Source: Trypanosoma brucei
Lineage: Eukaryota
DNA length: 64,000 nucleotides
Direction of reading: 5' to 3'
NCBI GenBank assembly: GCA_000002445.1
Contig: CP000071.1
Span: forward strand, 1,088,001-1,152,000
Part shown: one piece after another, positions 840-54,041 of the stretch
How positions within the stretch are numbered: the first letter of the stretch is position 1
Layout: every line of letters starts with the position of its first letter
Notes under the pieces: model-generated
What the model was told of the DNA's origin: nothing
Database searches by the model: none
What the model saw: only the letters and a program-made list of their open reading frames with translations
Made by a program: the position numbers and the translations under genes

Positions 840-2765
840 CTAATTGGCTGTGGGTTCCCGCCGTCTGGGAGAATCATTAGAGGGGGCATGAACATCCTCC
901 GCCTTCTTTGTAATAGCTTTGCCGTTTTCGTCAAGAACATCACATATACGTGCCGCAGGTATCAGTAAAAACACAAGAGGAATGTTGATGAGTGGAGTGC
1001 CAAAGTGACCAAGAAGTAGAAGCCACTTCACATTACTGAAGTCGCATGGACCCACCGTAATGTCTGATTGCACATTCCATACGTATTCCATCAAAAGCCA
1101 TCCAAGTGTGTTGGAAAGAGAACGGCCAAAATTAGCGAATCCTGCAAGTAATGCATACACCATACTTTCAGACCCACGGGGACAGAGCCTCGAAATGAGC
1201 ATTACAGTTGGCATGAAGTGCATCATGTAGCACACCTGGTGTATAATTTGGTCACCAAGAACGAATACAACGTGATCGCTAACATACGGACGGTTCCATC
1301 GCTCCACAATGATTATATCAAAGATACTCGAAACTATCTCAATCAAAGTTGTTACGATGAATGTTAGGCGATAGCTGCGCTTTGAGAATACGTATCTGAA
1401 TAACGTCACACCAATAACACCACCCACAGCTCCAATCATATTACCCACAGTGCTGTAGTAAAAGTATGAAAAGTTAGGACCACCAGGGAAACAATCGGGG
1501 GTCGCCATGAAGACATTGTCGATTGCGCCAGGAAGTTGGATGTACGCGACCCTCGAGATGAATGTGAACATATTTGCCTTCGCGATCACAAGTGGAAGAG
1601 CAACGAAACCGAGTCCACAGAGTGTAAATGACGCCACAACACTGGTTATTAGCAGCTGCAACCTTGTGCCAAGGACTGTCACGAGAACCATACCGATGGC
1701 GCCAAGTGTGAGAAGCATGCAGTAAAACACAACCTTCTTGTTGCGAGCAAACACTTCTCGATTCACTTCAAAGGCACCACAGCAACAAGGTAGTATCCGT
1801 GCTCCGCCCTCACCCACTTCCTCGGTATCCGATGGATTGTCCAGTGAGCCACTTGTTGCTTCGCTCCCCTGTAACCTCGCGGCGTCGGCTTCACGCTCCA
1901 GCTGCTCTTCCCGAATAATCTTCAGGTCGTACGCACGTTCCTCTCGGTTCTTCCGTTCACCATACCAATTCAGCATGAAGAATATCGTCGGCACCAACTG
2001 CATCCCAGCAGAGATAAACACAGCCACTCGCTGCAACCTCTTATCGGTAAGTGGTCCTACAATGGAGGACGCAACAAGGGAACCAGTTAGAACGCACCAC
2101 CAAACCCAACTCACAAGCGATGGGCCCGCCAATGGGACGCGGCGAATCAAGCGACTGTAATGCCCTTGTGTGAGGATATCAAGGTTAGCCTTGGTAAACG
2201 ACGTCACAAAAACCAGTATTCCGGCCACCGGTACATACGACAACTCTCCGGGCAGTGAACCGTACACAATAGCGAGGGTGGAACCCACCACACAGGATAG
2301 AGCGAGGTACCATCGCTTCGTGTACCCAAATAACGCAAAGAGGTCACTGAACATAGCTGCAAACGGCTTCACTGCGTAACCAAATGTAACCAAGCTACTC
2401 ATTCGTTGGTAAAGCTTTGCATCAGCACCAAAGGTGTAGGTAAACATTGGAAAAAGTGTGGTTCGAATGATGTTGTCAGCAATTCCTTTGCCGAAGAGCT
2501 CGGAGAGGCCAAGGGCGAGGACACATCTCGGTCCGAACGCTTCCACAGCAGTGCCGAATACGGGAATGCTCCACACGCATGGCAGCTTTCGGAACAAGGC
2601 CCTTGCGTCAGGGTGTACAGGACGAGCATCCATTGTTTCCTCTGCAGAGAGTTTGTGAGTTGTACACTCAGCTTCGTGAGCTTGGGGTGCGGAATGTTGA
2701 GGTGGTTGGTCCTGGCATGCGTTCGGTGACGTGGTCATTGCTGGTACTCGAATATGTTCCCACAA
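840..2765 (-). CDS. Polytopic membrane transporter, copy A of a tandem pair; tentatively folate/biopterin transporter (FBT/BT1, MFS-like) family
   Basis: 641-aa uninterrupted ORF with about 12 hydrophobic segments and a hydrophilic N-terminus. It is 97-98% identical to the ORF at 5216..7141. The family assignment comes from overall architecture and remembered synteny, not from a verified motif. Confidence 0.55.
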   Translation of the reverse strand: MWEHIRVPAMTTSPNACQDQPPQHSAPQAHEAECTTHKLSAEETMDARPVHPDARALFRKLPCVWSIPVFGTAVEAFGPRCVLALGLSELFGKGIADNIIRTTLFPMFTYTFGADAKLYQRMSSLVTFGYAVKPFAAMFSDLFALFGYTKRWYLALSCVVGSTLAIVYGSLPGELSYVPVAGILVFVTSFTKANLDILTQGHYSRLIRRVPLAGPSLVSWVWWCVLTGSLVASSIVGPLTDKRLQRVAVFISAGMQLVPTIFFMLNWYGERKNREERAYDLKIIREEQLEREADAARLQGSEATSGSLDNPSDTEEVGEGGARILPCCCGAFEVNREVFARNKKVVFYCMLLTLGAIGMVLVTVLGTRLQLLITSVVASFTLCGLGFVALPLVIAKANMFTFISRVAYIQLPGAIDNVFMATPDCFPGGPNFSYFYYSTVGNMIGAVGGVIGVTLFRYVFSKRSYRLTFIVTTLIEIVSSIFDIIIVERWNRPYVSDHVVFVLGDQIIHQVCYMMHFMPTVMLISRLCPRGSESMVYALLAGFANFGRSLSNTLGWLLMEYVWNVQSDITVGPCDFSNVKWLLLLGHFGTPLINIPLVFLLIPAARICDVLDENGKAITKKAEDVHAPSNDSPRRREPTAN

Positions 2766-3083: not shown

Positions 3084-4247
3084 TTAAACTATTCTCCGGT
3101 CACGCTTCGCCATGACGCGCAATGCAGTTGCGCATTTTGTGTGAAGTGAGAGTAATGTCAGCATGAGGGCACAACTCTCACGCAAATTATGAGTAACGGA
3201 ATTGTCTTCACATCGTGTAGGCGGTGCTACAGGTGATGCAATGGAAGGAAGAACATCGCATATCTTCCCCACATGCCGCAGCACTTCGCTGTCGATGGGT
3301 ATGCAGCTACCCTGCTGACTGGCGGTGAGATACTTGATGACTACAAGCACCTGTCGCCTTAACAAACGAAGGGAACGTTGCACCCGCAGCAGGCGCTCCC
3401 ATGCCGTCGAGTTGCCACTCACATCCACGGAACCAGTGGGAACTGCACAAATGCCGGCAGAGGAAGCGTCCAACCCGACCCTTGTTATATCATCGGTTTC
3501 ACAAACATGCCGCACCCTCACCAGCTCAACCGCGAGTTGCGGCTTTTGGGGCAGCCTTATCGTAACATGATTTCCATAGTTTAGAGCACCAATGGGAATC
3601 AGAGGAGAGACGCCGCCGAGGAATCGGGTGGTACTTTCAGGTGTGGTGGTGGGAGCATCCTGGCATTGGGAGTCGGTTAAGTGAAATTGACGGACCTTTA
3701 ATGCGTACATTCGGGAGGAGGCAAATCCCACGGACTCACTGGTGTCAACGATCAACGCAAGCAACACAGTGGAGGGATGGTCTTCAATAATCTCACGAAT
3801 TCCGGTGTCGAAAACTGCACACCATCGGGCAGCGTCACTCAAGTTGCATCCGACGGCATACCAGCCAACCACGTGTAACCCCGGTAACACGTTAGCAACC
3901 TGCTCCCGTTTGCGCTTCATCGCCGGCCAATCAAGGGCAGACACGGCTCCGCTCTGTGATGAGCAGCTGTCAACGGCTTCGAACGACGTCGTGACCTCGC
4001 ATTCGTACACATCCGAAACGCTCCCCAAAAGAATGCCGGCTGCATATCTCCTTGACAACCGCACCCCATCCACTTCACGCATTCCGCGCCGCACCCTTGC
4101 AGCGTGCTTGGTAATGCTTAGCACTACCTGGGGATGAACATGAACGTACGTCGAGACGGCACACAATTCCCCACGACGAGCAGCCATCATTGGCACCCTG
4201 TACTTGAAGCACCAAAACACACACAACCGCTTACTAGCAAATGCCAC
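3084..4247 (-). CDS. MPN (JAB1/Mov34) domain protein lacking the JAMM metalloprotease motif (eIF3f/h-, CSN6- or Rpn8-like scaffold)
   Basis: 387-aa ORF. The N-terminal MPN-like core runs VHPQVVLSITKH...GILLGS...VTTSFEA and includes HVVGWYAVG, where the canonical HxHx7Sx2D zinc site is absent. The true start may be the internal Met at about 4190. The gene sits between the two transporter copies. Confidence 0.45.
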   Translation of the reverse strand: MAFASKRLCVFWCFKYRVPMMAARRGELCAVSTYVHVHPQVVLSITKHAARVRRGMREVDGVRLSRRYAAGILLGSVSDVYECEVTTSFEAVDSCSSQSGAVSALDWPAMKRKREQVANVLPGLHVVGWYAVGCNLSDAARWCAVFDTGIREIIEDHPSTVLLALIVDTSESVGFASSRMYALKVRQFHLTDSQCQDAPTTTPESTTRFLGGVSPLIPIGALNYGNHVTIRLPQKPQLAVELVRVRHVCETDDITRVGLDASSAGICAVPTGSVDVSGNSTAWERLLRVQRSLRLLRRQVLVVIKYLTASQQGSCIPIDSEVLRHVGKICDVLPSIASPVAPPTRCEDNSVTHNLRESCALMLTLLSLHTKCATALRVMAKRDRRIV

Positions 4248-4922: not shown

Positions 4923-7211
4923 TCCCCTCTTCAATCTCTCCCATCAAATAATTCTCTATTACTAGCAGTGTACATACAGACACTGGTTGGAAACATATTT
5001 CCATGTGTAGTATCAAAATTACATCATACATACACACACACACACACACGCATGCCATTGAAGAGCGTAGGAAGGAAGAGGTTGCGATGGAAGGGGCGTG
5101 TCACTAAACATGTAAAAAAAAATGGTCACCGCAGAAAACGATATAGAACTCCCATTTGTAAGCCGCAATGATGGATCGATTCAGATATTGGTGATGGAAG
5201 GGTTTCGATATGGTTCTAATTGGCTGTGGGTTCCCGCCGTCTGGGAGAATCATTAGAGGGGGCATGAACATCCTCCGCCTTCTTTGTAATAGCTTTGCCG
5301 TTTTCGTCAAGAACATCACATATACGTGCCGCAGGTATCAGTAAAAACACAAGAGGAATGTTGATGAGTGGAGTGCCAAAGTGACCAAGAAGTAGAAGCC
5401 ACTTCACATTACTGAAGTCGCATGGACCCACCGTAATGTCTGATTGCACATTCCATACGTATTCCATCAAAAGCCATCCAAGTGTGTTGGAAAGAGAACG
5501 GCCAAAATTAGCGAATCCTGCAAGTAATGCATACACCATACTTTCAGACCCACGGGGACAGAGCCTCGAAATGAGCATTACAGTTGGCATGAAGTGCATC
5601 ATGTAGCACACCTGGTGTATAATTTGGTCACCAAGAACGAATACAACGTGATCGCTAACATACGGACGGTTCCATCGCTCCACAATGATTATATCAAAGA
5701 TACTCGAAACTATCTCAATCAAAGTTGTTACGATGAATGTTAGGCGATAGCTGCGCTTTGAGAATACGTATCTGAATAACGTCACACCAATAACACCACC
5801 CACAGCTCCAATCATATTACCCACAGTGCTGTAGTAAAAGTATGAAAAGTTAGGACCACCAGGGAAACAATCGGGGGTCGCCATGAAGACATTGTCGATT
5901 GCGCCAGGAAGTTGGATGTACGCGACCCTCGAGATGAATGTGAACATATTTGCCTTCGCGATCACAAGTGGAAGGGCAACGAAACCGAGTCCACAGAGTG
6001 TAAATGACGCCACAACACTGGTTATTAGCAGCTGCAACCTTGTGCCAAGGACTGTCACGAGAACCATACCGATGGCGCCAAGTGTGAGAAGCATGCAGTA
6101 AAACACAACCTTCTTGTTGCGAGCAAACACTTCTCGATTCACTTCAAAGGCACCACAGCAACAAGGTAGTATCCGTGCTCCGCCCTCACCCACTTCCTCG
6201 GTATCCGATGGATTGTCCAGTGAGCCACTTGTTGCTTCGCTCCCCTGTAACCTCACGGCGTCGGCTTCATGCTCCAGCTTCTTTTCGCGAATAATCTTCA
6301 GGTCGTACGCACGTTCCTCTCGGTTCTTCCGTTCACCATACCAATTCAGCATGAAGAATATCGTCGGCACCAACTGCATCCCAGCAGAGATAAACACAGC
6401 CACTCGCTGCAACCTCTTATCGGTAAGTGGTCCTACAATGGAGGACGCAACAAGGGAACCAACCAAAAGGCACCACCAAACCCAACTCACAAGCGATGGG
6501 CCCGCCAATGGGACGCGGCGAATCAAGCGACTGTAATGCCCTTGTGTGAGGATATCAAGGTTAGCCTTGGTAAACGACGTCACAAAAACCAGTATTCCGG
6601 CCACCGGTACATACGACAACTCTCCAGGCAGTGAACCGTACACAATAGCGAGGGTGGAACCCACCACACAGGATAGAGCGAGGTACCATCGCCTCGTGTA
6701 CCCAAATAACGCAAAGAGGTCACTGAACATAGCTGCAAACGGTTTCACTGCGTAACCAAATGTAACCAAGCTACTCATTCGTTGGTAAAGCTTTGCATCA
6801 GCACCAAAGGTGTAGGTAAACATTGGAAAAAGTGAGGATCGAATGATGTTGTCAGCAATTCCTTTGCCGAAGAGCTCGCAGAAACCAAGGGCGAAAACAA
6901 ACTTCGGTCCGAACGCTTCCACAGCAGTGCCGAATACGGGAATGCTCCACACGCATGGCAGCTTTCGGAACAAGGCCCTTGCGTCAGGGTGTACAGGACG
7001 AGCATCCATTGTTTCCTCTGCAGAGAGTTTGTGAGTTGTACACTCAGCTTCGTGAGCTTGGGGTGCGGAATGTTGAGGCGGCTGGTCCTGGCATGCGTTC
7101 GGTGACGTGGTCATTGCTGGTACTCGAATATGTTCCCACAAGTATGAATGTTTGTCGCTATCGTTGCTTTGGCTTCGAGTTTATCTCCAGAACAAAATGG
7201 AAGGGTTACCT
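4923..7211. repeat. Tandem segmental duplication, unit B
   Basis: Direct alignment with 549..2835. Similarity is lost at both ends (4922/548 and 7212/2836). Confidence 0.9.
5216..7141 (-). CDS. Polytopic membrane transporter, copy B of the tandem pair (same family as 840..2765)
   Basis: 641-aa ORF collinear with copy A. It differs in a clustered patch, for example PRCVLALGLSE vs PKFVFALGFCE and REEQLEREADAAR vs REKKLEHEADAVR. The conserved downstream flank includes a (CA)n repeat. Confidence 0.55.
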   Translation of the reverse strand: MWEHIRVPAMTTSPNACQDQPPQHSAPQAHEAECTTHKLSAEETMDARPVHPDARALFRKLPCVWSIPVFGTAVEAFGPKFVFALGFCELFGKGIADNIIRSSLFPMFTYTFGADAKLYQRMSSLVTFGYAVKPFAAMFSDLFALFGYTRRWYLALSCVVGSTLAIVYGSLPGELSYVPVAGILVFVTSFTKANLDILTQGHYSRLIRRVPLAGPSLVSWVWWCLLVGSLVASSIVGPLTDKRLQRVAVFISAGMQLVPTIFFMLNWYGERKNREERAYDLKIIREKKLEHEADAVRLQGSEATSGSLDNPSDTEEVGEGGARILPCCCGAFEVNREVFARNKKVVFYCMLLTLGAIGMVLVTVLGTRLQLLITSVVASFTLCGLGFVALPLVIAKANMFTFISRVAYIQLPGAIDNVFMATPDCFPGGPNFSYFYYSTVGNMIGAVGGVIGVTLFRYVFSKRSYRLTFIVTTLIEIVSSIFDIIIVERWNRPYVSDHVVFVLGDQIIHQVCYMMHFMPTVMLISRLCPRGSESMVYALLAGFANFGRSLSNTLGWLLMEYVWNVQSDITVGPCDFSNVKWLLLLGHFGTPLINIPLVFLLIPAARICDVLDENGKAITKKAEDVHAPSNDSPRRREPTAN

Positions 7212-16949: not shown

Positions 16950-18263
16950 TCACCCCTTTACTGAACGCGCCAATTCCTCCGCCACGCTATCAATAAACAC
17001 TTCTGTTGTCTCGTAGTGAGACCGTTGCAGTGCTGCTGCCCCGTGCACGCAAAGCGCAAGGTCCTTCGTCATGTGCCCACCCTCGATGGTTTTGATCGTT
17101 GCCCTCTCGAGGGAGGAAGCAAACTCCACCAGTGGCGCATTCCCATCTAATTTCCCACGATGAGCTAATCCACGGGTCCATGCGAATATTGATGCAACAG
17201 AATTCGTGCTTGTTTCTTTCCCCTTTTGGTGCTCGCGATAGTGCCTTGTTACTGTCCCATGAGCTGCTTCCGACTCAATTGTTTTACCGTCCGGACATAA
17301 CAACACCGAAGTCATGAGACCCAATGAACCAAAGCCTTGCGCGACTATGTCACTTTGCACGTCGCCATCGTAGTTCTTACAGGCCCACACGAACCCACCG
17401 TTGCCCTTAATCATTTGTGCTACCTGATCGTCAATGAGTCGGTGCACATAAGTTAGATTCAGTCGCTCAAACTGTTCACGATATTTTGTGTCATACATGC
17501 GCTGGAACGTTTCAAGAAACAAACCGTCATACTTTTTGAGGATGGTGTTCTTCGTAGAGAGTACGAGGGGGTAGCGCCGCATGATGGCGTATTCGAAACA
17601 ACTCTCCGCAAACGCTTCAACACTCTCCCGTGTATTGTACATGGCAAGTCCGACACCCTCACCCTTAAAGTTGAATACCTCCAGCACTTGCGGCGACCCG
17701 CCATTAGCTGGTGTATGCACAAGTTCCAGACGACCGGGGGGGAAAAGAGATTCCGTTGCTTTGTACTGATCACCATATGCGTGACGACCAACAATAATCG
17801 GTTCACTCCACTGGGGCACCACGCGAGGGACGTTCTTCACAATGATTGGCTCACGAAACACCGTGCCACCAAGAATGTTACGAATTGTCCCGTTAGGACT
17901 CTTCCACATCTTCTTCAAGTTAAACTCCTTCACACGAGCCTCATCGGGAGTTATGGTCGCACATTTAATACCCACGTTATGTCGTTGTATGGCCTCCGCT
18001 GCCTGTTCAGTAACTTTATCATTACTTGCGTCCCTACTCGTAATACTGAGGTCGTAGTACTCAATAGGAACATCGACATGGGGTAAAATGAGTTTCTCCT
18101 TTATAAGTGCCCATATGATCCGTGTCATCTCATCACCATCCATGTCAACAACCGTCCCACTCACCTTAATGCGACCCAAGCTTGGACGTGTTGTAGACAC
18201 AAAGCGCGGTGTTAATGCACCTGCGTTCACAGAGGAAGCTGCACAGGCTACACGGCGGAACAT
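16950..18263 (-). CDS. IDH: NADP-dependent isocitrate dehydrogenase, mitochondrial-type precursor
   Basis: 437-aa ORF. Arg-rich N-terminal presequence [31 protein letters not shown], followed by canonical dimeric NADP-IDH blocks: [26 protein letters not shown], and a C-terminal NADP-binding region. Confidence 0.9.

Positions 18264-30467: not shown

Positions 30468-30501
<34 letters not shown>
30468..30501. repeat. (TA)17 microsatellite
   Basis: Direct reading. It lies between the PCD-like gene and the 128-aa membrane-protein gene. Confidence 0.9.
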
Positions 30502-30880: not shown

Positions 30881-31690
30881 TTACGGGGATGTGCAAGAAG
30901 AAGGAGTTCCGTCATTATTATTGTTATTACCGTCTTTTGAAAGAACAGCTTCCCATGAAGTTGCTATGCCCTCTACAGTTTCCGCGAGTGGCTTCTGGCG
31001 TTCCTCCTCGCGACGCTTCAACGCTTCCGCCACACATTCACCCATCATATCCTCAATTACGGAACGTTTAACCACTCCATCAATGATTACCTTTTGTTGC
31101 CGTTTGCTTTTCTTAAACATGTTGTATTGATCGTTCAAAAAGGCGGCGAGACGAGCCTCACGTTTACTGAGACCCCGGAAAGATGGCGAATAAATATATA
31201 CCGTTATCCTCGTCCCTTCCCAAGTTACGTTTGGGTACTTGTCGCTTCCGTAACAAAAGGCCCACAGACGGCCCATGAAAAGATACGCGTCGCGAAAATT
31301 AGCGAAATCAAAATCGCGCTTTAGCGCCCCCTCACCGGTAAAAATGGTCAGTGGGGCGGGACCCATTTCTTCTTTTTCTTCTTTTCGAGCATCAGCTCCT
31401 TCAGCATCGGCATCGGCATCAACACACGGAAAACATTCATCCACCGGCACCCAACCTTTCACGCTTTTCAGAAAATCCTCCACTTCATCTTCCCGCATCC
31501 TCCGCTCATGACGGGCGTAAGAGGCCCCATGCTGAGGGTTGGAGTTGTGAAAAATGTTAAAACCATAATCCCCTTTGCAACGGCGTGTGGAAACATCACT
31601 TGTGCGGATATTTCCCAAACATCCGCGCGCAGTCGCCATACAACAGGAGCGGCGCATGTGCAAATGAGTGTGAGATGTTAGCACATTCAT
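30881..31690 (-). CDS. Pterin-4a-carbinolamine dehydratase (PCD/DCoH)-like domain protein with degenerate catalytic motif
   Basis: The C-terminal ~90 aa KGWVPVDE...LKRDFDFANFRDAYLFMGRLWAFCYGSDKYPNVTWEGTRITVYIYSPSFRGLSKREARLAAFLNDQY align to the DCoH core (FxFxDFxxAxxFMxRVA...DHHPEW..V...V.I.LSTH...GLSxRDxxLAxFI). The catalytic HHP is replaced by KYP and STH by SPS. The ORF-track start (31909) reads through (TA)n, so the start is trimmed to Met at 31688-31690. Confidence 0.5.
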   Translation of the reverse strand: MNVLTSHTHLHMRRSCCMATARGCLGNIRTSDVSTRRCKGDYGFNIFHNSNPQHGASYARHERRMREDEVEDFLKSVKGWVPVDECFPCVDADADAEGADARKEEKEEMGPAPLTIFTGEGALKRDFDFANFRDAYLFMGRLWAFCYGSDKYPNVTWEGTRITVYIYSPSFRGLSKREARLAAFLNDQYNMFKKSKRQQKVIIDGVVKRSVIEDMMGECVAEALKRREEERQKPLAETVEGIATSWEAVLSKDGNNNNNDGTPSSCTSP

Positions 31691-31833
31691 AACGCGATTA
31701 AAAGCACTGTACCTAAGCAACTTTTTCTTTTGATGTGGGCTCTGTACAAAGCGCCCTTTCGTTCCCGACGAGAGCACATGAAATAAGACGAAGAAAGAAG
31801 CTGTGTGGTTAAACTGGAAAGGCACTTGAGTAT

Positions 31834-31857
31834 CATATATATATATATATATATATA
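31834..31857. repeat. (TA)12 microsatellite in the 5' region of the PCD-like gene
   Basis: Direct reading. Confidence 0.9.
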
Positions 31858-32812
31858 AAGACACACACACGCCCTGCAAACGTGTAAGTTGACGAAAACC
31901 ACGACTCAAAACTTCGTCCCTGTTTGGTAGTATTAATAACTTTTTTTTTTAAACGTGCATCAAGGGAAATATTTGAACCCGCGCGCACTCTGGCACCTCG
32001 TGCCGGCGTTATTCTTACTTAACGTGTGCCTGATAGTTTTTTTTTTTACTTCGCTGGAGCCGTTCTTTGCTTCCTTCCCTCCCTTCTCTCGCTGTCTCAT
32101 CTCCTTTCATTTCTCGCATGTCATAACAAAATCCGTAGAGTCACATGCTCAAAAAGAAAACAAAAAAAAAAGAAGCAAAGAACCGAAGAAAACACAACAA
32201 CCGAAAACTAATGGAGTGGAATGATGCTTCAATTGTAAAACTCAAATCAGCAGAAGTACACATGAACCCTCCCGTAAAGTCACCGCTTCCCCACCATCCG
32301 CTACTCATTCCATTCCCTTTTTTTCCCACTACTCTTGTCGTTCACAAACATAAGCCAGGCAAACACAGACATAAAATGGGAAATATATATATATATATGT
32401 AGAAACAAAATCCACATATCAACTTACCTTCATCAGGTATTGCGTCCTTCTTTCCCCCTTTCCAAAAGCATGCTGCGTTAACCATATTTCGACTTATTTC
32501 CCACCGCAACCTCAAACGAACACACCTCAATAATCCAACCAGTGACGTTACGTCCCCCGTCACCCCGCATGGCACCGCAGGAACGCTGGGCTCAGTGCTA
32601 AACTCAACTTCACGAGCGATTTGCAAAAGCGGGGTTGCCGTGCTAAACAAAAAAAATTCCGAAGGGAAAATGACAAGAACGTAAGAAAGAAAAGGGTGCA
32701 CGGCAACATACGAAATGCATGAACAGATAGTCCTACGTATATGTGTACGTGCGACCGCGTGTGAATGTGAATGTACTCAAACTTGGATGGTGTGTGTGTT
32801 CGTGTGGAAATC

Positions 32813-34264
32813 CTATGCCGATTCTTGTGGCACTTCTCGGCGTGATCGCTTCTGCTTCGGTGTCTCACTCACTTCCTCACGCTCACCTTCGGCTTCAGCG
32901 CTTTGAGCGGTCCGTTGTTTCTTTGCACGGCGGCGAATAATTTTTTTGTATTGTTCGAGCGCCTCCTCCATAGCTACACGGTTTGAGGGCGGTTTATTAC
33001 CCGTGTCAAAGAAATTGAGCCGCGCTTCCACCTGTTCTCGCAATTTCTCGCCAAAGACCTGCGGCGGGGCGTCCATGAAACAATCAATGCGGCACGCAAG
33101 GGCAGCTTTGTTGGCAAGGTAACGAGAAATCTTACCCCTATGCTCCTTAGCGGCGCGCTGAATGAAGGTGGAATGGAAAATAAGGCCGTATTTGGGGGTG
33201 TTGCCCTTCCGCTTTTTCAAGGCACGGAATAAAGCCTTCTCTGCACCGAGAATTTGGATGGTACTCGCAGGCGATTTGGCGAGGTTTGTAAGGGAACCGG
33301 CTTTCGAGATGAGCTTCGCACCGATGTTCTGCCCCATCAACTCCGTTAAATTGGGTGCCACAAGCATCATCTTATCCACAAGGTACTGTTGTAACGACTC
33401 TCGGTAGTCTCCAAGAGACACGACACGTTTCATGAAGCGGCGAATGTTTGACCAGTCAACCTCTGCCATATCGCCACCCATCGACGTGACGGCTTTCTCA
33501 TACACACGAGCCGCGAGAGCTTCATCACCCTCGAGAATCTCAGCGATTTGTTGCGTTACCTCCTCAGTATCGCGCTCTTCCAGCGTGCTGCGGCTACCAA
33601 TTAACAGAGCGACTTTGGAATACTTGAGTGGCTCCGGCACCTCCTTAGCCAATTCAGGAAAGTGCCAGCCGTACCATTCCTTTACGCGCATTCCAAGAAG
33701 GTTGACGCCCTTGTCCATGTGCTCTGTCAAAGCAGAAGATTGAATAATCATGTTGTCACTGCGATGAACGTTGAATTTCACTTTGTTGCGGGAGAAGGCG
33801 TGGCCGAGACCGCACTGCGCACGAAGTATATCCTTTTCTTGATGCTCGGGCAACAATTTCTCGGCGTGCAAACGCAAACAGCGGCACATCTCCACCACGT
33901 TTTCATTGCACAACACAGCGAATTTCAGCTCATCGTGAATGGCACTCCCCAACTTGGGGTCTGACACACCAAGCTCCCAGTTGGCTTCACCCTTTGTTGC
34001 CTTCTTTGACAGAACCGAAGTCAAAAAGTTATTCAGGAAAGGACTTACAATAGATTCATTAATGCAAACGGCGTCCTCCAACGCATTCTCCGGTGACTGA
34101 TAAGGTGCGAAGGATAGAAGTTTCACCCACGGGGAAAACGTGGCAAACGTTTGAAGGTCCTTCTGTAGTGCAACATCACCAGCACCAATTTCCTCCGTGG
34201 TGAGTACCTTAAACAGGGCATAACCCGTGGGACCCTCATATAAGAGATAAAGTGTTTTTGACAT
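32813..34264 (-). CDS. Nop56/Nop58-family box C/D snoRNP core protein
   Basis: 483-aa ORF. N-terminus MSKTLYLLYEGPTGYALFKV. Nop domain QILGAEKALFRALKKRKGNTPKYGLIFHSTFIQRAAKEHRGKISRYLANKAALACRIDCF. Charged K/R/E-rich C-tail. Confidence 0.8.
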   Translation of the reverse strand: MSKTLYLLYEGPTGYALFKVLTTEEIGAGDVALQKDLQTFATFSPWVKLLSFAPYQSPENALEDAVCINESIVSPFLNNFLTSVLSKKATKGEANWELGVSDPKLGSAIHDELKFAVLCNENVVEMCRCLRLHAEKLLPEHQEKDILRAQCGLGHAFSRNKVKFNVHRSDNMIIQSSALTEHMDKGVNLLGMRVKEWYGWHFPELAKEVPEPLKYSKVALLIGSRSTLEERDTEEVTQQIAEILEGDEALAARVYEKAVTSMGGDMAEVDWSNIRRFMKRVVSLGDYRESLQQYLVDKMMLVAPNLTELMGQNIGAKLISKAGSLTNLAKSPASTIQILGAEKALFRALKKRKGNTPKYGLIFHSTFIQRAAKEHRGKISRYLANKAALACRIDCFMDAPPQVFGEKLREQVEARLNFFDTGNKPPSNRVAMEEALEQYKKIIRRRAKKQRTAQSAEAEGEREEVSETPKQKRSRREVPQESA

Positions 34265-51791: not shown

Positions 51792-54041
51792 TTATTTACG
51801 GGTCGCTGGTCGCTTGAGCGTTGTAACGAGACCAACTCCTCGAACGTAGCGACTACCCTGTGTCTGCGTTTGCTTTTCATTGGCTGGTACCCGCCAATCC
51901 TTTCCTGCCACAGTCGAGTGAAATTTATATCGCTGGCGGGAAGGCGCTGTCCCACATCGTTCCACATCTTGCACTATTGAAAGTACGTCATCAGGTAGTG
52001 CCGCCCCCTGTTGCTGCTGCACAATGAAACGTGCGATAATCGGTGCGTTTGGGTCACCTGCGGTAACAAACGTGTGCGCTGTCCCGGTTCGGCCGGCTCT
52101 TCCCGTCCGCCCAATGCGATGTACGTACGCATCGACATGAGCTGGGAGGTCATAGTTGATCACGTGTGAAAGACCAGGAACGTCAATGCCGCGGGCAGCA
52201 ACATCAGTGGCGCAAAGTACACGGACTTCGTTGCAGCTGAAGCCTCGTATCATCGCCTCACGGCGCTTCTGCCGCATACCACCATGCAGAAACTGAAGCA
52301 TATTTGGTGGTGCTCGCAACGCACGTGAGAGTTCACTCGCCAACCACTCCACCTCCTCTTTCCGGTTGGCAAAAATAAGAACCTGTTGCCTTCGGTTAAT
52401 CACGCCATCATCGTAAAGCTTAACAATTGCCTGTAACCGTTGAGAAGGGTCGGACAAAGCGTACATTCTTTGCGTAACATTCGAGTTAACCTTATGCTCA
52501 CGGTCTACTTCTAGCAAAAGCCGCTCAGGTTGCATAAACCGCGTGGCCAGTCCCCCAACGGTGGCATTCCATGTGGCCGTCCACATCGTTGTCTGCCGGC
52601 TTCGTCGATACCTCTTAATATCTGACATCAGAAACTCCAACTGCGGTGCAAAACCAAGCTCCAACATTCGGTCTGCTTCGTCCATAATAAGAAAGCTCAC
52701 CGCCTTCAGGCTGACTTCTCGGGCCTCAACAAAGTCACAAAGCCGGCCCGGGGTCGCCACCAGTACGTCGCATCCCCCCATGTGCCGCACATATTCCAGT
52801 TGTTGCTCCCGATCCTGTCCTCCGTACATACCAGCTATGCGCACTGCATTTTCCGACAACAGGGAAAAAACCCGACGCGTTTGTTGCACTAATTCTCTAG
52901 TGGGGCACAGAACCAGCACATGCGGCACCGCCCGCACCCTCCCAGACTCCTCCGATGGATCTCCGCTGGCCTCAGTACTTGCGCTATTTTCAACATGGTC
53001 ACTCTCCAGCCGCCTGGCGAGGGCTGCAAGCGCAGGAAGCGCGAACGCTACAGTTTTTCCACTCCCGGTTGGCGCAACCCCAACAACGTCGTGTTTTGCC
53101 ATAAACAAAGGAATCGCCACAGACTGCACAAGACTTGGTGCAATATACCCGGATCGCATAAGTCCGTGCCGTAACCACGGAGGCAACTTGTTGGCGAGAT
53201 CCTCGAAAGAGAGAAGGCGCTGTACAGGGACAGTATTTCGCATGTGATCGCGCACAACGAAATTTTCTTTTTCACTGCCCACATCACTCAAGGAGCCGTG
53301 GTCAGTTGTTTTTTCCTCTGTGCTGAATGTTGAGGCTTCGCCGCGATCGGCATCAGTTGGTGAGCCTTGTCCACTCACAGACCGCATTGGAAGACCAGTT
53401 GTGCGTGTGTCACTGTGTTGGCAATTGCCCTGACATAGTGAGGGAATCTTCGAAGGAGATGGCCCCATTGCACGCTTTACCTCCAGAGAAGTTTCTGAGT
53501 CATTACTACCCGAAGCCAATAATGGATGTGGATTGGTGTCACGCACGCCAAGTTGCGTTCCACCCTCAACGCTGATGCCATTCTCGCCGCATGTCGCTAC
53601 CTTTGCCACAGCGGCGGGGACGTCACTCTTCATAGTTGAAGTATCAAACACTCGGTCCTCACTGTTGGTGGGCTGGTGAGGGTCCTCACAACGCAGCTCA
53701 GTGTGAAAATCATTGTTTGCATGCAAACCTCTGCATGACACACTCACAATACCATCGGTTACGAAAGAATGTGTGTCACTCGACGCGTTACTTTCATGGC
53801 TTTCAACGGGAGGAGCGTGAGGCATCCCCACAACTCCGTACTTTCGGGGTGCACCACTTTCAACCTCCTGTACCGTCGCCATACCTGAAGTGGCATGAGC
53901 GTTACCTGCATCGTGGGGAGGTAATTTAGCGTGACGGAATTGGACGCTGCGTGGACCCCAGTAAGCACTACCAACTTTCACTGAGCACTGACGAACAGTC
54001 CGCAAGCAGTGAAATGTCCAGTGTCGCATTTGCACAGGCAC
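51792..54041 (-). CDS. DEAD-box ATP-dependent RNA helicase with a long S/T-rich N-terminal extension
   Basis: 749-aa ORF. Q motif region ...SLVQSVAIPLF..., motif I VAPTGSGKT, Ia PTRELVQQ, Ib TPGRL, II LIMDEADRML, III TATW (a SAT variant), V ARGIDVP, VI HRIGRTGRAG. The start codon is uncertain (alternative MATVQEV). Confidence 0.8.
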   Translation of the reverse strand: MPVQMRHWTFHCLRTVRQCSVKVGSAYWGPRSVQFRHAKLPPHDAGNAHATSGMATVQEVESGAPRKYGVVGMPHAPPVESHESNASSDTHSFVTDGIVSVSCRGLHANNDFHTELRCEDPHQPTNSEDRVFDTSTMKSDVPAAVAKVATCGENGISVEGGTQLGVRDTNPHPLLASGSNDSETSLEVKRAMGPSPSKIPSLCQGNCQHSDTRTTGLPMRSVSGQGSPTDADRGEASTFSTEEKTTDHGSLSDVGSEKENFVVRDHMRNTVPVQRLLSFEDLANKLPPWLRHGLMRSGYIAPSLVQSVAIPLFMAKHDVVGVAPTGSGKTVAFALPALAALARRLESDHVENSASTEASGDPSEESGRVRAVPHVLVLCPTRELVQQTRRVFSLLSENAVRIAGMYGGQDREQQLEYVRHMGGCDVLVATPGRLCDFVEAREVSLKAVSFLIMDEADRMLELGFAPQLEFLMSDIKRYRRSRQTTMWTATWNATVGGLATRFMQPERLLLEVDREHKVNSNVTQRMYALSDPSQRLQAIVKLYDDGVINRRQQVLIFANRKEEVEWLASELSRALRAPPNMLQFLHGGMRQKRREAMIRGFSCNEVRVLCATDVAARGIDVPGLSHVINYDLPAHVDAYVHRIGRTGRAGRTGTAHTFVTAGDPNAPIIARFIVQQQQGAALPDDVLSIVQDVERCGTAPSRQRYKFHSTVAGKDWRVPANEKQTQTQGSRYVRGVGLVTTLKRPATRK

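What the first reader, a model, noticed from the sequence alone, without database searches (positions are those of the whole stretch)
30881..31690. PCD/DCoH-like domain with all three catalytic histidines replaced (probable pseudo-enzyme)
The C-terminal domain aligns convincingly with pterin-4a-carbinolamine dehydratase. The active-site residues are substituted: His-His-Pro becomes Lys-Tyr-Pro and the downstream Ser-Thr-His becomes Ser-Pro-Ser. The DCoH-type dimerisation surface is preserved. Catalytically dead PCD domains have elsewhere been recruited as assembly or transcription cofactors (plant type-2 PCD/RAF2, DCoH-HNF1), so this protein probably has a non-enzymatic role. It carries an additional 150-aa N-terminal region with an acidic D/E-rich stretch. 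The organism imports pterins, so whether a catalytically active PCD exists elsewhere in the genome is relevant.
Basis: partly seen in the sequence, partly recalled or inferred. Interest (0 to 1): 0.5.

Follow-up and report, generated by a model that had tools for sequence, protein, structure and literature searches.

The report
Histidine-less mitochondrial PCD-like protein, kinetoplastids
This Trypanosoma brucei gene (inferred to be Tb927.8.3740) encodes a protein with the fold of the pterin-recycling enzyme PCD but none of its catalytic residues; it belongs to a conserved, probably mitochondrial kinetoplastid family that databases label as the enzyme but that almost certainly does something else, still unknown.

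Summary

The catalytic histidines are absent. His-His-Pro is Lys151-Tyr152-Pro153. The catalytic Asp is Glu178. No His occurs at these columns in 72 relatives, and none matches the published PCD-activity signature.

The anatomy was misread. The PCD domain spans aa 62-192 and is not C-terminal. The acidic stretch is a lineage-variable loop insertion inside it. The real additions are an Arg/Ser-rich presequence that looks mitochondrial, a nearly invariant 25-aa motif (KGDYGFNVFHNSNPQHGGSYARHE), and a long C-terminal helix.

The replaced pocket residues are among the most conserved positions, so the pocket appears repurposed rather than decayed. A separate gene, Tb927.11.7040, carries the PCD annotation; I could not obtain its sequence. 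The function is inferred: most likely a non-catalytic binding or assembly subunit in the mitochondrion. I classify it as a new variant of a known kind, of moderate interest.

The parts
30881..31690 (-). Complete CDS, 269 codons plus stop. It is identical to T. brucei TREU927 XP_847205.1 'hypothetical protein, conserved'. The gene ID Tb927.8.3740 is inferred from gene order.
   Evidence: The ID is inferred from three anchors in the window: IDH = Tb927.8.3690 at 16950-18263; the Nop-domain gene (NOP56/58-type) = Tb927.8.3750 at 32813-34264; the DEAD helicase = Tb927.8.3830 at 51792-54041.
31577..31690 (-). Variable N-terminal presequence (aa 1-38). It is rich in Arg, Ser and Thr, has 1 acidic residue, and has Arg at -2/-3 before the conserved block. 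It is a putative mitochondrial targeting peptide. Alternative starts are Met12 and Met18.
   Evidence: the same composition is seen in almost all orthologues, and deep members start MFRR/MLRR. Tb927.8.3740 is TargetP-positive and sits in the mitochondrial reference set of PMC5436138.
31502..31576 (-). Family-specific, nearly invariant motif (aa 39-63): KGDYGFNIFHNSNPQHGASYARHER.
   Evidence: G40, D41, H48, N51, P52, H54, G55 and Y58 are unchanged in all 53 of the 56 sequences that cover this region. pLDDT is below 50 in both AF2 models. No Pfam match.
31442..31501 (-). Start of the PCD fold (aa 64-83): N-terminal helix 67-76 and strand beta1, including the conserved Gly-Trp80.
   Evidence: hhalign aligns query 62-192 to canonical PCD columns 7-118. 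MAFFT aligns this stretch with human PCBD1. AF2 secondary structure.
31337..31441 (-). Acidic low-complexity insertion (aa 84-118) in the beta1-beta2 loop of the PCD fold. Its length varies between lineages.
   Evidence: It is absent in P0041, P0043, P0047-P0056 and reaches about 100 aa in P0035 and P0038. pLDDT is 57-64. It contains a GCATCG x2.8 repeat at 31404-31420.
31115..31336 (-). PCD/DCoH core (aa 119-192): beta2, helix alpha1, beta3, beta4 and the start of helix alpha2.
31232..31240 (-). Lys151-Tyr152-Pro153, in place of the catalytic His-His-Pro.
   Evidence: Column counts in 72 sequences: K66/R4/T2; Y69/F2/C1; P69.
31184..31192 (-). Tyr167-Ser168-Pro169, in place of Ser-Thr-His (the third catalytic His).
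   Evidence: Column 169 is P55/G9/A5/S1/K1/R1, with no His.
31157..31159 (-). Glu178, invariant, in place of the signature Asp.
   Evidence: It is Glu in 72 of 72 sequences.
30926..31114 (-). C-terminal helical extension (aa 193-255). Helix alpha2 continues to about aa 232, followed by a second helix at 236-255. The sequence is only weakly conserved beyond about aa 200.
   Evidence: AF2 secondary structure H176-232 and H236-255. A long helix is also predicted in P0053. Conservation profile.

Best explanation
The gene encodes a nuclear-encoded member of a distinct PCD/DCoH-fold family found in kinetoplastids and unnamed, more divergent relatives. The protein is probably imported into the mitochondrion.

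It keeps the complete fold but has lost every residue of the dehydratase signature, so it does not recycle pterin-4a-carbinolamine.

The residues that replaced the active site are fixed across the family (K151, Y152, P153, Y167, S168, E178, R180). So are the exposed faces of helix alpha1 and a 25-residue N-terminal motif. That motif does not fold in the single-chain models made here.

The most likely mechanism is a non-catalytic binding subunit. The old pocket and the helix face would serve as docking surfaces, and the N-terminal motif would fold onto a partner. The protein would then act as an assembly or regulatory cofactor of a mitochondrial protein or complex.

Shown here: fold, loss of the signature, conservation pattern, family boundaries.
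Inferred: mitochondrial location (presequence and a published TargetP call), binding role, existence of a partner.
For: Fold and family:
- Pfam PF01329 scores 34.3 bits against a cut-off of 26.
- hhalign gives 98.1% probability over aa 62-192.

Loss of catalysis:
- K151, Y152, P169 and E178 occupy the catalytic columns.
- None of the 56 + 16 relatives matches the activity signature. 108 of 120 vertebrate PCDs match, and so do 28 of the 34 single-domain PCD-type representatives listed (P0214-P0247).
- There is no His at the three columns in 72 sequences.

Distinct clade under selection:
- In an exhaustive profile search, 23 representatives score at least 146 bits. The next two score 79 and 68 bits, and canonical PCDs score 48 bits or less.
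- The pocket residues are nearly invariant across members that are only 38-50% identical overall.

Mitochondrial targeting:
- The presequences are basic, rich in hydroxylated residues and almost free of acidic residues, with Arg at -2/-3.
- Tb927.8.3740 is TargetP-positive and listed in the mitochondrial reference set of PMC5436138.

Partner-dependent element:
- The invariant N-terminal motif has pLDDT below 50 in two independent models.

Precedent:
- acRAF (PDB 4LOW) is a PCD-like protein without the active site that acts as a Rubisco assembly factor (PDB title).
Against: - No partner is known.
- The gene ID was not found in the protein-complex map supplements. It was also not found in the mass-spectrometry-based mitoproteome table as held.
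- No solved structure contains this protein.
- No paper text in the library mentions the gene.
- Strong conservation of polar pocket residues (Lys, Tyr, Ser, Glu, Arg) is equally what a new small-molecule or catalytic site would look like.
- Mitochondrial location rests on prediction only. MitoFates was negative in the same table.
- Oligomeric state and interfaces were not modelled.
Confidence: 0.45

Rival explanations
1. Prozyme model. The dead paralogue forms a hetero-oligomer with the annotated T. brucei PCD (Tb927.11.7040) through the PCD dimer/tetramer interfaces, and activates, stabilises or regulates it. Trypanosomatid AdoMetDC and PRMT1 (and deoxyhypusine synthase, from my own knowledge) are controlled this way by catalytically dead paralogues.
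For: - A separately annotated PCD gene exists. Its product is 14.2 kDa and was detected with 7 peptides in organelle-enriched fractions. Both genes appear in the mitochondrial reference set.
- PCDs work as dimers or tetramers (PDB entries).
- Helix alpha1, which forms the tetramer and HNF1-binding face in DCoH (my own knowledge of 1DCH and 1F93), is almost invariant in this family.
- Prozymes are an established trypanosomatid theme (PMC5201418, PMC6221367, bioRxiv 10.1101/776112).
Against: - The family is only about 20% identical to canonical PCDs and extends to divergent unnamed relatives. The divergence is deeper than I recall for known prozyme pairs (my own knowledge).
- It carries an extra invariant motif and a long helix that a simple prozyme would not need.
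- I could not obtain the Tb927.11.7040 sequence, so neither its catalytic competence nor interface compatibility was checked.
- No co-purification data exist.
Confidence: 0.15
2. Neofunctionalised pocket. The former active site now binds, and possibly converts, a different small molecule such as another pterin, a folate or molybdopterin-type compound, or a phosphorylated metabolite. It would use Lys151, Tyr152, Tyr167, Ser168, Glu178 and Arg177/180, perhaps with His48, His54 or His61 from the N-terminal motif. On this reading the protein is a sensor or enzyme, not a scaffold.
For: - The pocket-lining replacements are the most conserved positions of the family. Simple loss of function would relax them.
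- The N-terminal motif carries two His that never vary (His48, His54) and a third that is nearly invariant (His61).
- Non-canonical COG2154 proteins have been found active before (Naponelli et al. 2008, Plant Physiol 146:1515; my own knowledge, paper not held).
Against: - No known ligand or reaction fits.
- Neither AF2 model places the N-terminal motif on the domain with any confidence.
- No Pfam or PDB similarity to anything except PCDs.
- Conserved polar residues could equally contact a protein partner.
Confidence: 0.25
3. It is still a pterin-4a-carbinolamine dehydratase, as UniProt and recent genome annotations name it, and uses alternative acid/base residues.
For: - The PF01329 hit is above threshold, and automatic annotations read '4a-hydroxytetrahydrobiopterin dehydratase'.
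- The reaction is chemically easy, and some non-canonical family members retain activity (my own knowledge of Naponelli 2008).
Against: - It fails every position of the permissive activity signature except the Pro. This includes the His that is strictly required and the Asp.
- The plant type-2 proteins that lack the signature were inactive (my own knowledge of the same paper).
- T. brucei lacks PAH (PMC3060496) and already has a separately annotated PCD.
Confidence: 0.05
4. Nucleic-acid-binding protein. It would use the DCoH-type beta-sheet saddle, which resembles TBP, to act in mitochondrial RNA or kDNA transactions.
For: - Kinetoplastid mitochondria hold very many lineage-specific RNA- and DNA-binding proteins.
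- The DCoH saddle was originally compared with TBP (my own knowledge).
Against: - The solvent-facing residues of strands beta2-beta4 (positions 124, 126, 128, 156, 158) are the variable ones in the family.
- The mature protein is acidic, with a calculated pI of 5.3.
- It is absent from all solved T. brucei structures in the PDB copy searched, including mitoribosome and assembly-intermediate entries.
Confidence: 0.07

Closest known systems
Canonical pterin-4a-carbinolamine dehydratase / DCoH (PCBD1, PCBD2, bacterial PhhB; Pfam PF01329, COG2154)
   Same: - The structural motifs are kept: Gly-Trp, F-x-F, the A-x-x-F-M-x-R helix, D-x-x-P and G-L-S.
   Different: - All catalytic positions are replaced: His-His to Lys-Tyr, third His to Pro, Asp to Glu, Glu57-equivalent to Tyr.
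- About 20% sequence identity.
- It has a presequence, an invariant 25-aa N-terminal motif, a loop insertion and a roughly 65-aa helical tail.
- It forms a clade separated by about 100 bits from canonical PCDs.
PCD-like Rubisco assembly factors: plant RAF2 (type-2 PCD) and alpha-carboxysomal acRAF (PDB 4LOW)
   Same: PCD fold without the catalytic signature, recruited to a non-enzymatic role. Plant RAF2 is organelle-targeted.
   Different: - T. brucei has no Rubisco (my own knowledge).
- The predicted target organelle is the mitochondrion, not the plastid.
- The accessory elements differ.
Trypanosomatid prozymes (AdoMetDC prozyme, DHS paralogue, PRMT1 PRO)
   Same: A catalytically dead paralogue is conserved alongside an annotated active paralogue in the same organism. 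The enzyme family is obligately oligomeric.
   Different: - No evidence of a heteromer.
- The paralogues are much more divergent.
- The family seems older than the trypanosomatids.
- The active partner's sequence was not examined.

Membership tests
PCD family in the broad sense (Pfam PF01329 / COG2154 fold family) | Significant match to the PF01329 profile above the gathering score | tested here: met
   34.3 bits against a cut-off of 26, E 2.7e-8. hhalign against 121 canonical PCDs gives 98.1% probability, E 8.7e-14, over aa 62-192.
PCD family in the broad sense (Pfam PF01329 / COG2154 fold family) | beta-beta-alpha-beta-beta-alpha DCoH-like fold | tested here: met
   [not shown]
Catalytically active pterin-4a-carbinolamine dehydratase (EC 4.2.1.96) | Catalytic His triad (His61, His62, His79 in mature rat/human numbering) | tested here: not met
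   The triad is Lys151, Tyr152 and Pro169 by three alignment methods. No His occurs in these columns in 72 relatives.
Catalytically active pterin-4a-carbinolamine dehydratase (EC 4.2.1.96) | Activity signature [EDKH]-x(3)-H-[HN]-[PCS]-x(5,6)-[YWF]-x(9)-[HW]-x(8,15)-D (Naponelli et al. 2008; quoted from my own knowledge, paper not held) | tested here: not met
   The regex matches 0 of 56 family members and 0 of 16 deeper representatives. It matches 108 of 120 vertebrate PCDs and 28 of the 34 single-domain PCD-type representatives (P0214-P0247).
Catalytically active pterin-4a-carbinolamine dehydratase (EC 4.2.1.96) | Dehydratase activity in vitro, or complementation of a PCD-dependent E. coli strain | not testable with these tools
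   Needs a wet-lab assay.
Catalytically active pterin-4a-carbinolamine dehydratase (EC 4.2.1.96) | A pterin-dependent aromatic amino-acid hydroxylase partner in the genome | not tested
   The literature states that T. brucei lacks PAH and QDPR (PMC3060496). I did not search the genome.
DCoH-type transcriptional coactivator | Binds the HNF1 dimerisation domain through the helix alpha1 face; nuclear or cytosolic protein | tested here: inconclusive
   Helix alpha1 is highly conserved within the family. The protein carries a presequence that looks mitochondrial. No oligomer or complex was modelled. I did not search for an HNF1 homologue.
RAF2/acRAF-type PCD-like assembly factor | PCD fold lacking the catalytic residues | tested here: met
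RAF2/acRAF-type PCD-like assembly factor | Closer to RAF2/acRAF than to canonical PCDs (shared ancestry) | tested here: not met
   [not shown]
RAF2/acRAF-type PCD-like assembly factor | Rubisco client present | not tested
   Trypanosomes have no Rubisco (established knowledge). Not searched here.
Trypanosomatid prozyme | Catalytically dead paralogue of an enzyme | tested here: met
Trypanosomatid prozyme | An active paralogue is encoded in the same genome and located in the same compartment | tested here: inconclusive
   [quoted passage not shown] It is 14.2 kDa and listed in mitochondrial protein sets. I could not obtain its sequence, so its catalytic residues are unverified.
Trypanosomatid prozyme | Forms a heteromer with the active enzyme and activates it | not testable with these tools
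   Needs co-purification and an activity assay.

The most novel reading that the evidence does not exclude
The family is a mitochondrial 'pro-PCD'. On this reading a dead paralogue, conserved across kinetoplastids and deeper relatives, partners with the small annotated PCD (Tb927.11.7040) or with another mitochondrial client. It would control a pterin- or molybdopterin-type-linked step in an organism that lacks every known pterin-dependent hydroxylase. That would give a handle on the long-unexplained essential requirement of trypanosomatids for unconjugated pterins, the unknown reaction 'Y' of PMC12327612.
Probability: 0.12. Interest if true: 0.7.

Novelty: new variant of a known kind. Interest (0 to 1): 0.4.

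Why it matters
1. Annotation. UniProt and several recent genome annotations name this family '4a-hydroxytetrahydrobiopterin dehydratase'. The evidence here says that label is wrong for the whole clade, and it should not be counted as a pterin-recycling enzyme in metabolic reconstructions.

2. Pterin biology.
   - Published arguments use 'T. brucei possesses PCD but lacks PAH and QDPR' to infer an unknown essential pterin-dependent hydroxylation (PMC3060496, PMC12327612).
   - That argument should rest only on Tb927.11.7040, whose catalytic residues still need checking.
   - A conserved dead paralogue, probably in the same organelle, is an obvious candidate regulator.

3. Pseudoenzymes. This would be a third independent recruitment of the PCD fold to a non-dehydratase role, after DCoH-HNF1 and RAF2/acRAF. 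It comes with an unusually conserved, apparently partner-dependent N-terminal motif that can be tested directly.

Tried and rejected

- Retrieving the canonical T. brucei PCD sequence.
  - A search with human PCBD1 listed only vertebrates.
  - A profile of two candidate protist PCDs (P0214 + P0237) returned bacterial, stramenopile and fungal hits and no kinetoplastid.
  - Molecular weights of the canonical representatives did not match 14.237 kDa.

- Literature.
  - No paper text holds Tb927.8.3740, Tb927.11.7040 or the old IDs.
  - No hits for 'carbinolamine' with Tb927.
  - Naponelli 2008, Alsford 2011 and Pyrih 2023 are not held.

- Supplements.
  - The gene ID was absent from the Gazestani complex map, the Dejung proteome files held, the Zikova mitoproteome table as held and the TrypTag supplementary files held.
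  - The ImportOmics quantitative tables were truncated when stored.

- The AFDB50 fold library was unavailable.

- Taxon of the deep members. The contig of P0056 carries only one uninformative neighbour, and the cluster look-ups gave no names. The claim 'Euglenozoa-wide' is therefore not made.

- Second PCD-like ORF in the window. Six-frame HMM searches with canonical and family profiles find only this gene.

- Functional clustering with the two BT1 transporters 24 kb away. This was considered and set aside, because trypanosome polycistrons are not functional operons (established knowledge).

Full report
**What is there**

The window is Trypanosoma brucei brucei TREU927 DNA. The minus-strand ORF 30881-31690 encodes 269 aa. 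The protein is identical to XP_847205.1/AAZ13139.1, 'hypothetical protein, conserved'.

All long ORFs of the window lie on the minus strand, as expected for one trypanosome polycistron. Three neighbours anchor the gene numbering:
- the isocitrate dehydrogenase at 16950-18263 is Tb927.8.3690;
- the Nop-domain gene at 32813-34264 is Tb927.8.3750;
- the DEAD-box helicase at 51792-54041 is Tb927.8.3830.

Exactly five genes lie between the first two anchors. The gene is therefore Tb927.8.3740 (old ID Tb08.10J17.620). This is an inference from gene order, not a direct look-up.

**Is it a PCD domain?**

Yes.
- Pfam PF01329 scores 34.3 bits (cut-off 26, E 2.7e-8) over aa 120-187.
- A profile of 72 family members aligns to a profile of 121 canonical PCDs with 98.1% probability (E 8.7e-14). 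The alignment covers query aa 62-192 and columns 7-118 of the 120-column canonical profile.
- The AlphaFold2 model has core pLDDT of 91-97. It matches DCoH/PCD crystal structures with target-normalised TM of 0.85-0.89.

**Are the catalytic residues gone?**

Yes. HMMER, MAFFT and hhalign agree on the following, using Met=1 numbering of human PCBD1:

| Human PCBD1 | This protein |
|---|---|
| Glu58 | Tyr147 |
| His62 | Lys151 |
| His63 | Tyr152 |
| Pro64 | Pro153 |
| His80 | Pro169 |
| Asp89 | Glu178 |

The true equivalence is Tyr167-Ser168-Pro169.

Column counts in 72 relatives are K66/R4/T2, Y69/F2/C1 and P55/G9/A5/S1/K1/R1, with no His anywhere.

The PCD-activity signature of Naponelli et al. 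2008 is quoted from my own knowledge, because the paper is not held. It matches 0 of 56 family members and 0 of 16 deeper representatives. It matches 108 of 120 vertebrate PCDs and 28 of the 34 single-domain PCD-type representatives listed, P0214-P0247.

**Corrected anatomy**

The PCD domain is not C-terminal, and there is no single 150-aa N-terminal region. The layout is:
- **aa 1-38:** a variable presequence.
- **aa 39-63:** a nearly invariant motif, KGDYGFN(V/I)FHNSNPQHG(G/A)SYARHER.
- **aa 64-83:** the first helix and strand of the PCD fold, including the conserved Gly-Trp.
- **aa 84-118:** an acidic low-complexity insertion in the beta1-beta2 loop. It is absent in deeper relatives and up to about 100 aa in others. 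In T. brucei it is partly a GCATCG hexamer repeat.
- **aa 119-192:** the PCD core.
- **aa 193-269:** a tail in which helix alpha2 simply continues to about aa 232, followed by a second helix at 236-255. It is weakly conserved in sequence.

**A distinct, constrained family**

The first search found 56 homologues. The named ones come from Trypanosoma, Leishmania, Leptomonas, Phytomonas, Angomonas, Strigomonas, Novymonas and Porcisia. The rest are unnamed transcriptome and metagenome sequences.

An exhaustive HMMER profile search of 1.84 billion representatives gave 23 representatives at 146 bits or more. Two outliers followed at 79 and 68 bits, and canonical PCDs scored 48 bits or less. The clade is therefore sharply separated.

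I could not name the organisms of the deep members, so I do not claim a Euglenozoa-wide distribution.

Within the family the best-conserved positions are:
- the N-terminal motif;
- helix alpha1 (A135, Y136, F138, M139, G140, R141, A144, F145, C146, Y147);
- the former active-site region (D150, K151, Y152, P153, W157, Y167, S168, F171, G173, E178, R180).

The solvent-facing residues of the beta-sheet are variable. This pattern is not that of a decaying site. The pocket and the helix face are being kept for something.

**Location**

The presequences of nearly all members are basic, rich in Ser, Thr and Ala, and almost free of acidic residues. They have Arg at -2/-3 before the conserved block, and deep members start MFRR or MLRR.

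In Peikert et al. 2017 (PMC5436138, Supplementary Data 2a), Tb927.8.3740 is in the mitochondrial reference set. It is there because of its TriTrypDB annotation and a positive TargetP call. MitoFates was negative and there is no entry for the earlier mass-spectrometry proteomes. Mitochondrial import is therefore likely but inferred.

**A second PCD**

Reference annotations called the present gene 'hypothetical protein' in T. brucei, T. cruzi CL Brener and L. major. [quoted passage not shown] It appears in the mitoproteome table of Zikova et al. 2017 and was quantified with 7 peptides by Peikert et al.. T. cruzi likewise has TcCLB.503613.40.

This is presumably the 'PCD' that Ong et al. and Fairlamb's group count when they note that T. 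brucei keeps PCD while lacking PAH and QDPR. I could not retrieve its sequence, so its catalytic competence is unverified. In the Zikova table its KEGG-orthology cell is '0'. No second PCD-like ORF lies in this window.

**Mechanism**

- **Shown:** fold, loss of the signature, conservation pattern.
- **Inferred:** the protein does not dehydrate pterin carbinolamine (confidence about 0.9).

The reading I favour (0.45) is a non-catalytic binding subunit. The repurposed pocket and the helix alpha1 face would be docking surfaces. The invariant N-terminal motif has pLDDT below 50 in two models, which fits a segment that orders only on a partner.

The rivals are:
- a neofunctionalised small-molecule site (0.25);
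- a prozyme-type regulator of Tb927.11.7040 (0.15; precedents PMC5201418, PMC6221367, 10.1101/776112);
- nucleic-acid binding (0.07);
- residual PCD activity (0.05).

**Comparison with known systems and novelty**

No paper in the library mentions the gene, and no solved structure contains it. I rate it a new variant of a known kind, of moderate interest. It corrects a family-wide annotation and offers a testable candidate in the unresolved pterin biology of trypanosomatids. Its actual function remains unknown.

Noticed in passing
window 840-2765 and 5216-7141 (minus strand), with 3084-4247 between them: Two 641-aa BT1-family (folate/biopterin transporter) genes are 98% identical and are separated by a JAB/MPN-domain gene. 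They lie about 24 kb from the PCD-like gene in the same polycistron. Co-location in a trypanosome polycistron is not evidence of a functional link.
   Followed up: partly
window 31404-31420; also 30468-30501, 31835-31857, 32383-32398: The Asp-Ala-Asp-Ala-Asp-Ala stretch of the acidic insertion is a GCATCG x2.8 hexamer repeat. Perfect (TA)n arrays sit in intergenic regions around the gene (between the COPI_assoc-domain gene and this gene, this gene and the Nop-domain gene).
   Followed up: partly
window 31690-31909 (upstream of the CDS, minus strand): The T. b. gambiense orthologue is annotated as 318 aa against 269 aa in TREU927. In this window the in-frame upstream stretch has no ATG, and the mechanical ORF there starts with TTG. 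The family alignment supports the 269-aa start or a shorter one at Met12 or Met18.
   Followed up: partly
protein P0213 (554 aa, unknown organism): This protein has four tandem canonical PCD domains (NHHPEW, with T-T-D-D where S-T-H is expected). It also has an N-terminal signal-like peptide and a C-terminal hydrophobic segment. That is an unusual secreted or membrane-anchored multi-PCD architecture.
   Followed up: no
proteins P0223, P0230, P0236, P0238, P0240: Other environmental PCD-like proteins outside this family also fail the activity signature, for example H-T-P with Q-N-K, and E-H-Y-P. Loss of the His triad seems to have happened repeatedly.
   Followed up: no
proteins P0211 and P0212: Two outliers at 79 and 68 bits keep a weakened N-terminal motif (NPQ-G) and the helix signature. 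They have T-F-P or T-Y-P in place of K-Y-P, and one carries a very large insertion. They are possible intermediates or fast-evolving members.
   Followed up: no
Zikova et al. 2017 supplementary table (PMC5739487), row Tb927.11.7040: The KEGG-orthology cell of the annotated T. brucei PCD reads '0' although the product name is PCD. Its catalytic residues have not been checked here.
   Followed up: partly
window aa 39-63 of the protein (31502-31576): The most conserved segment of the whole family gets pLDDT below 50 in two AF2 models and matches no Pfam family. This is unexplained.
   Followed up: partly
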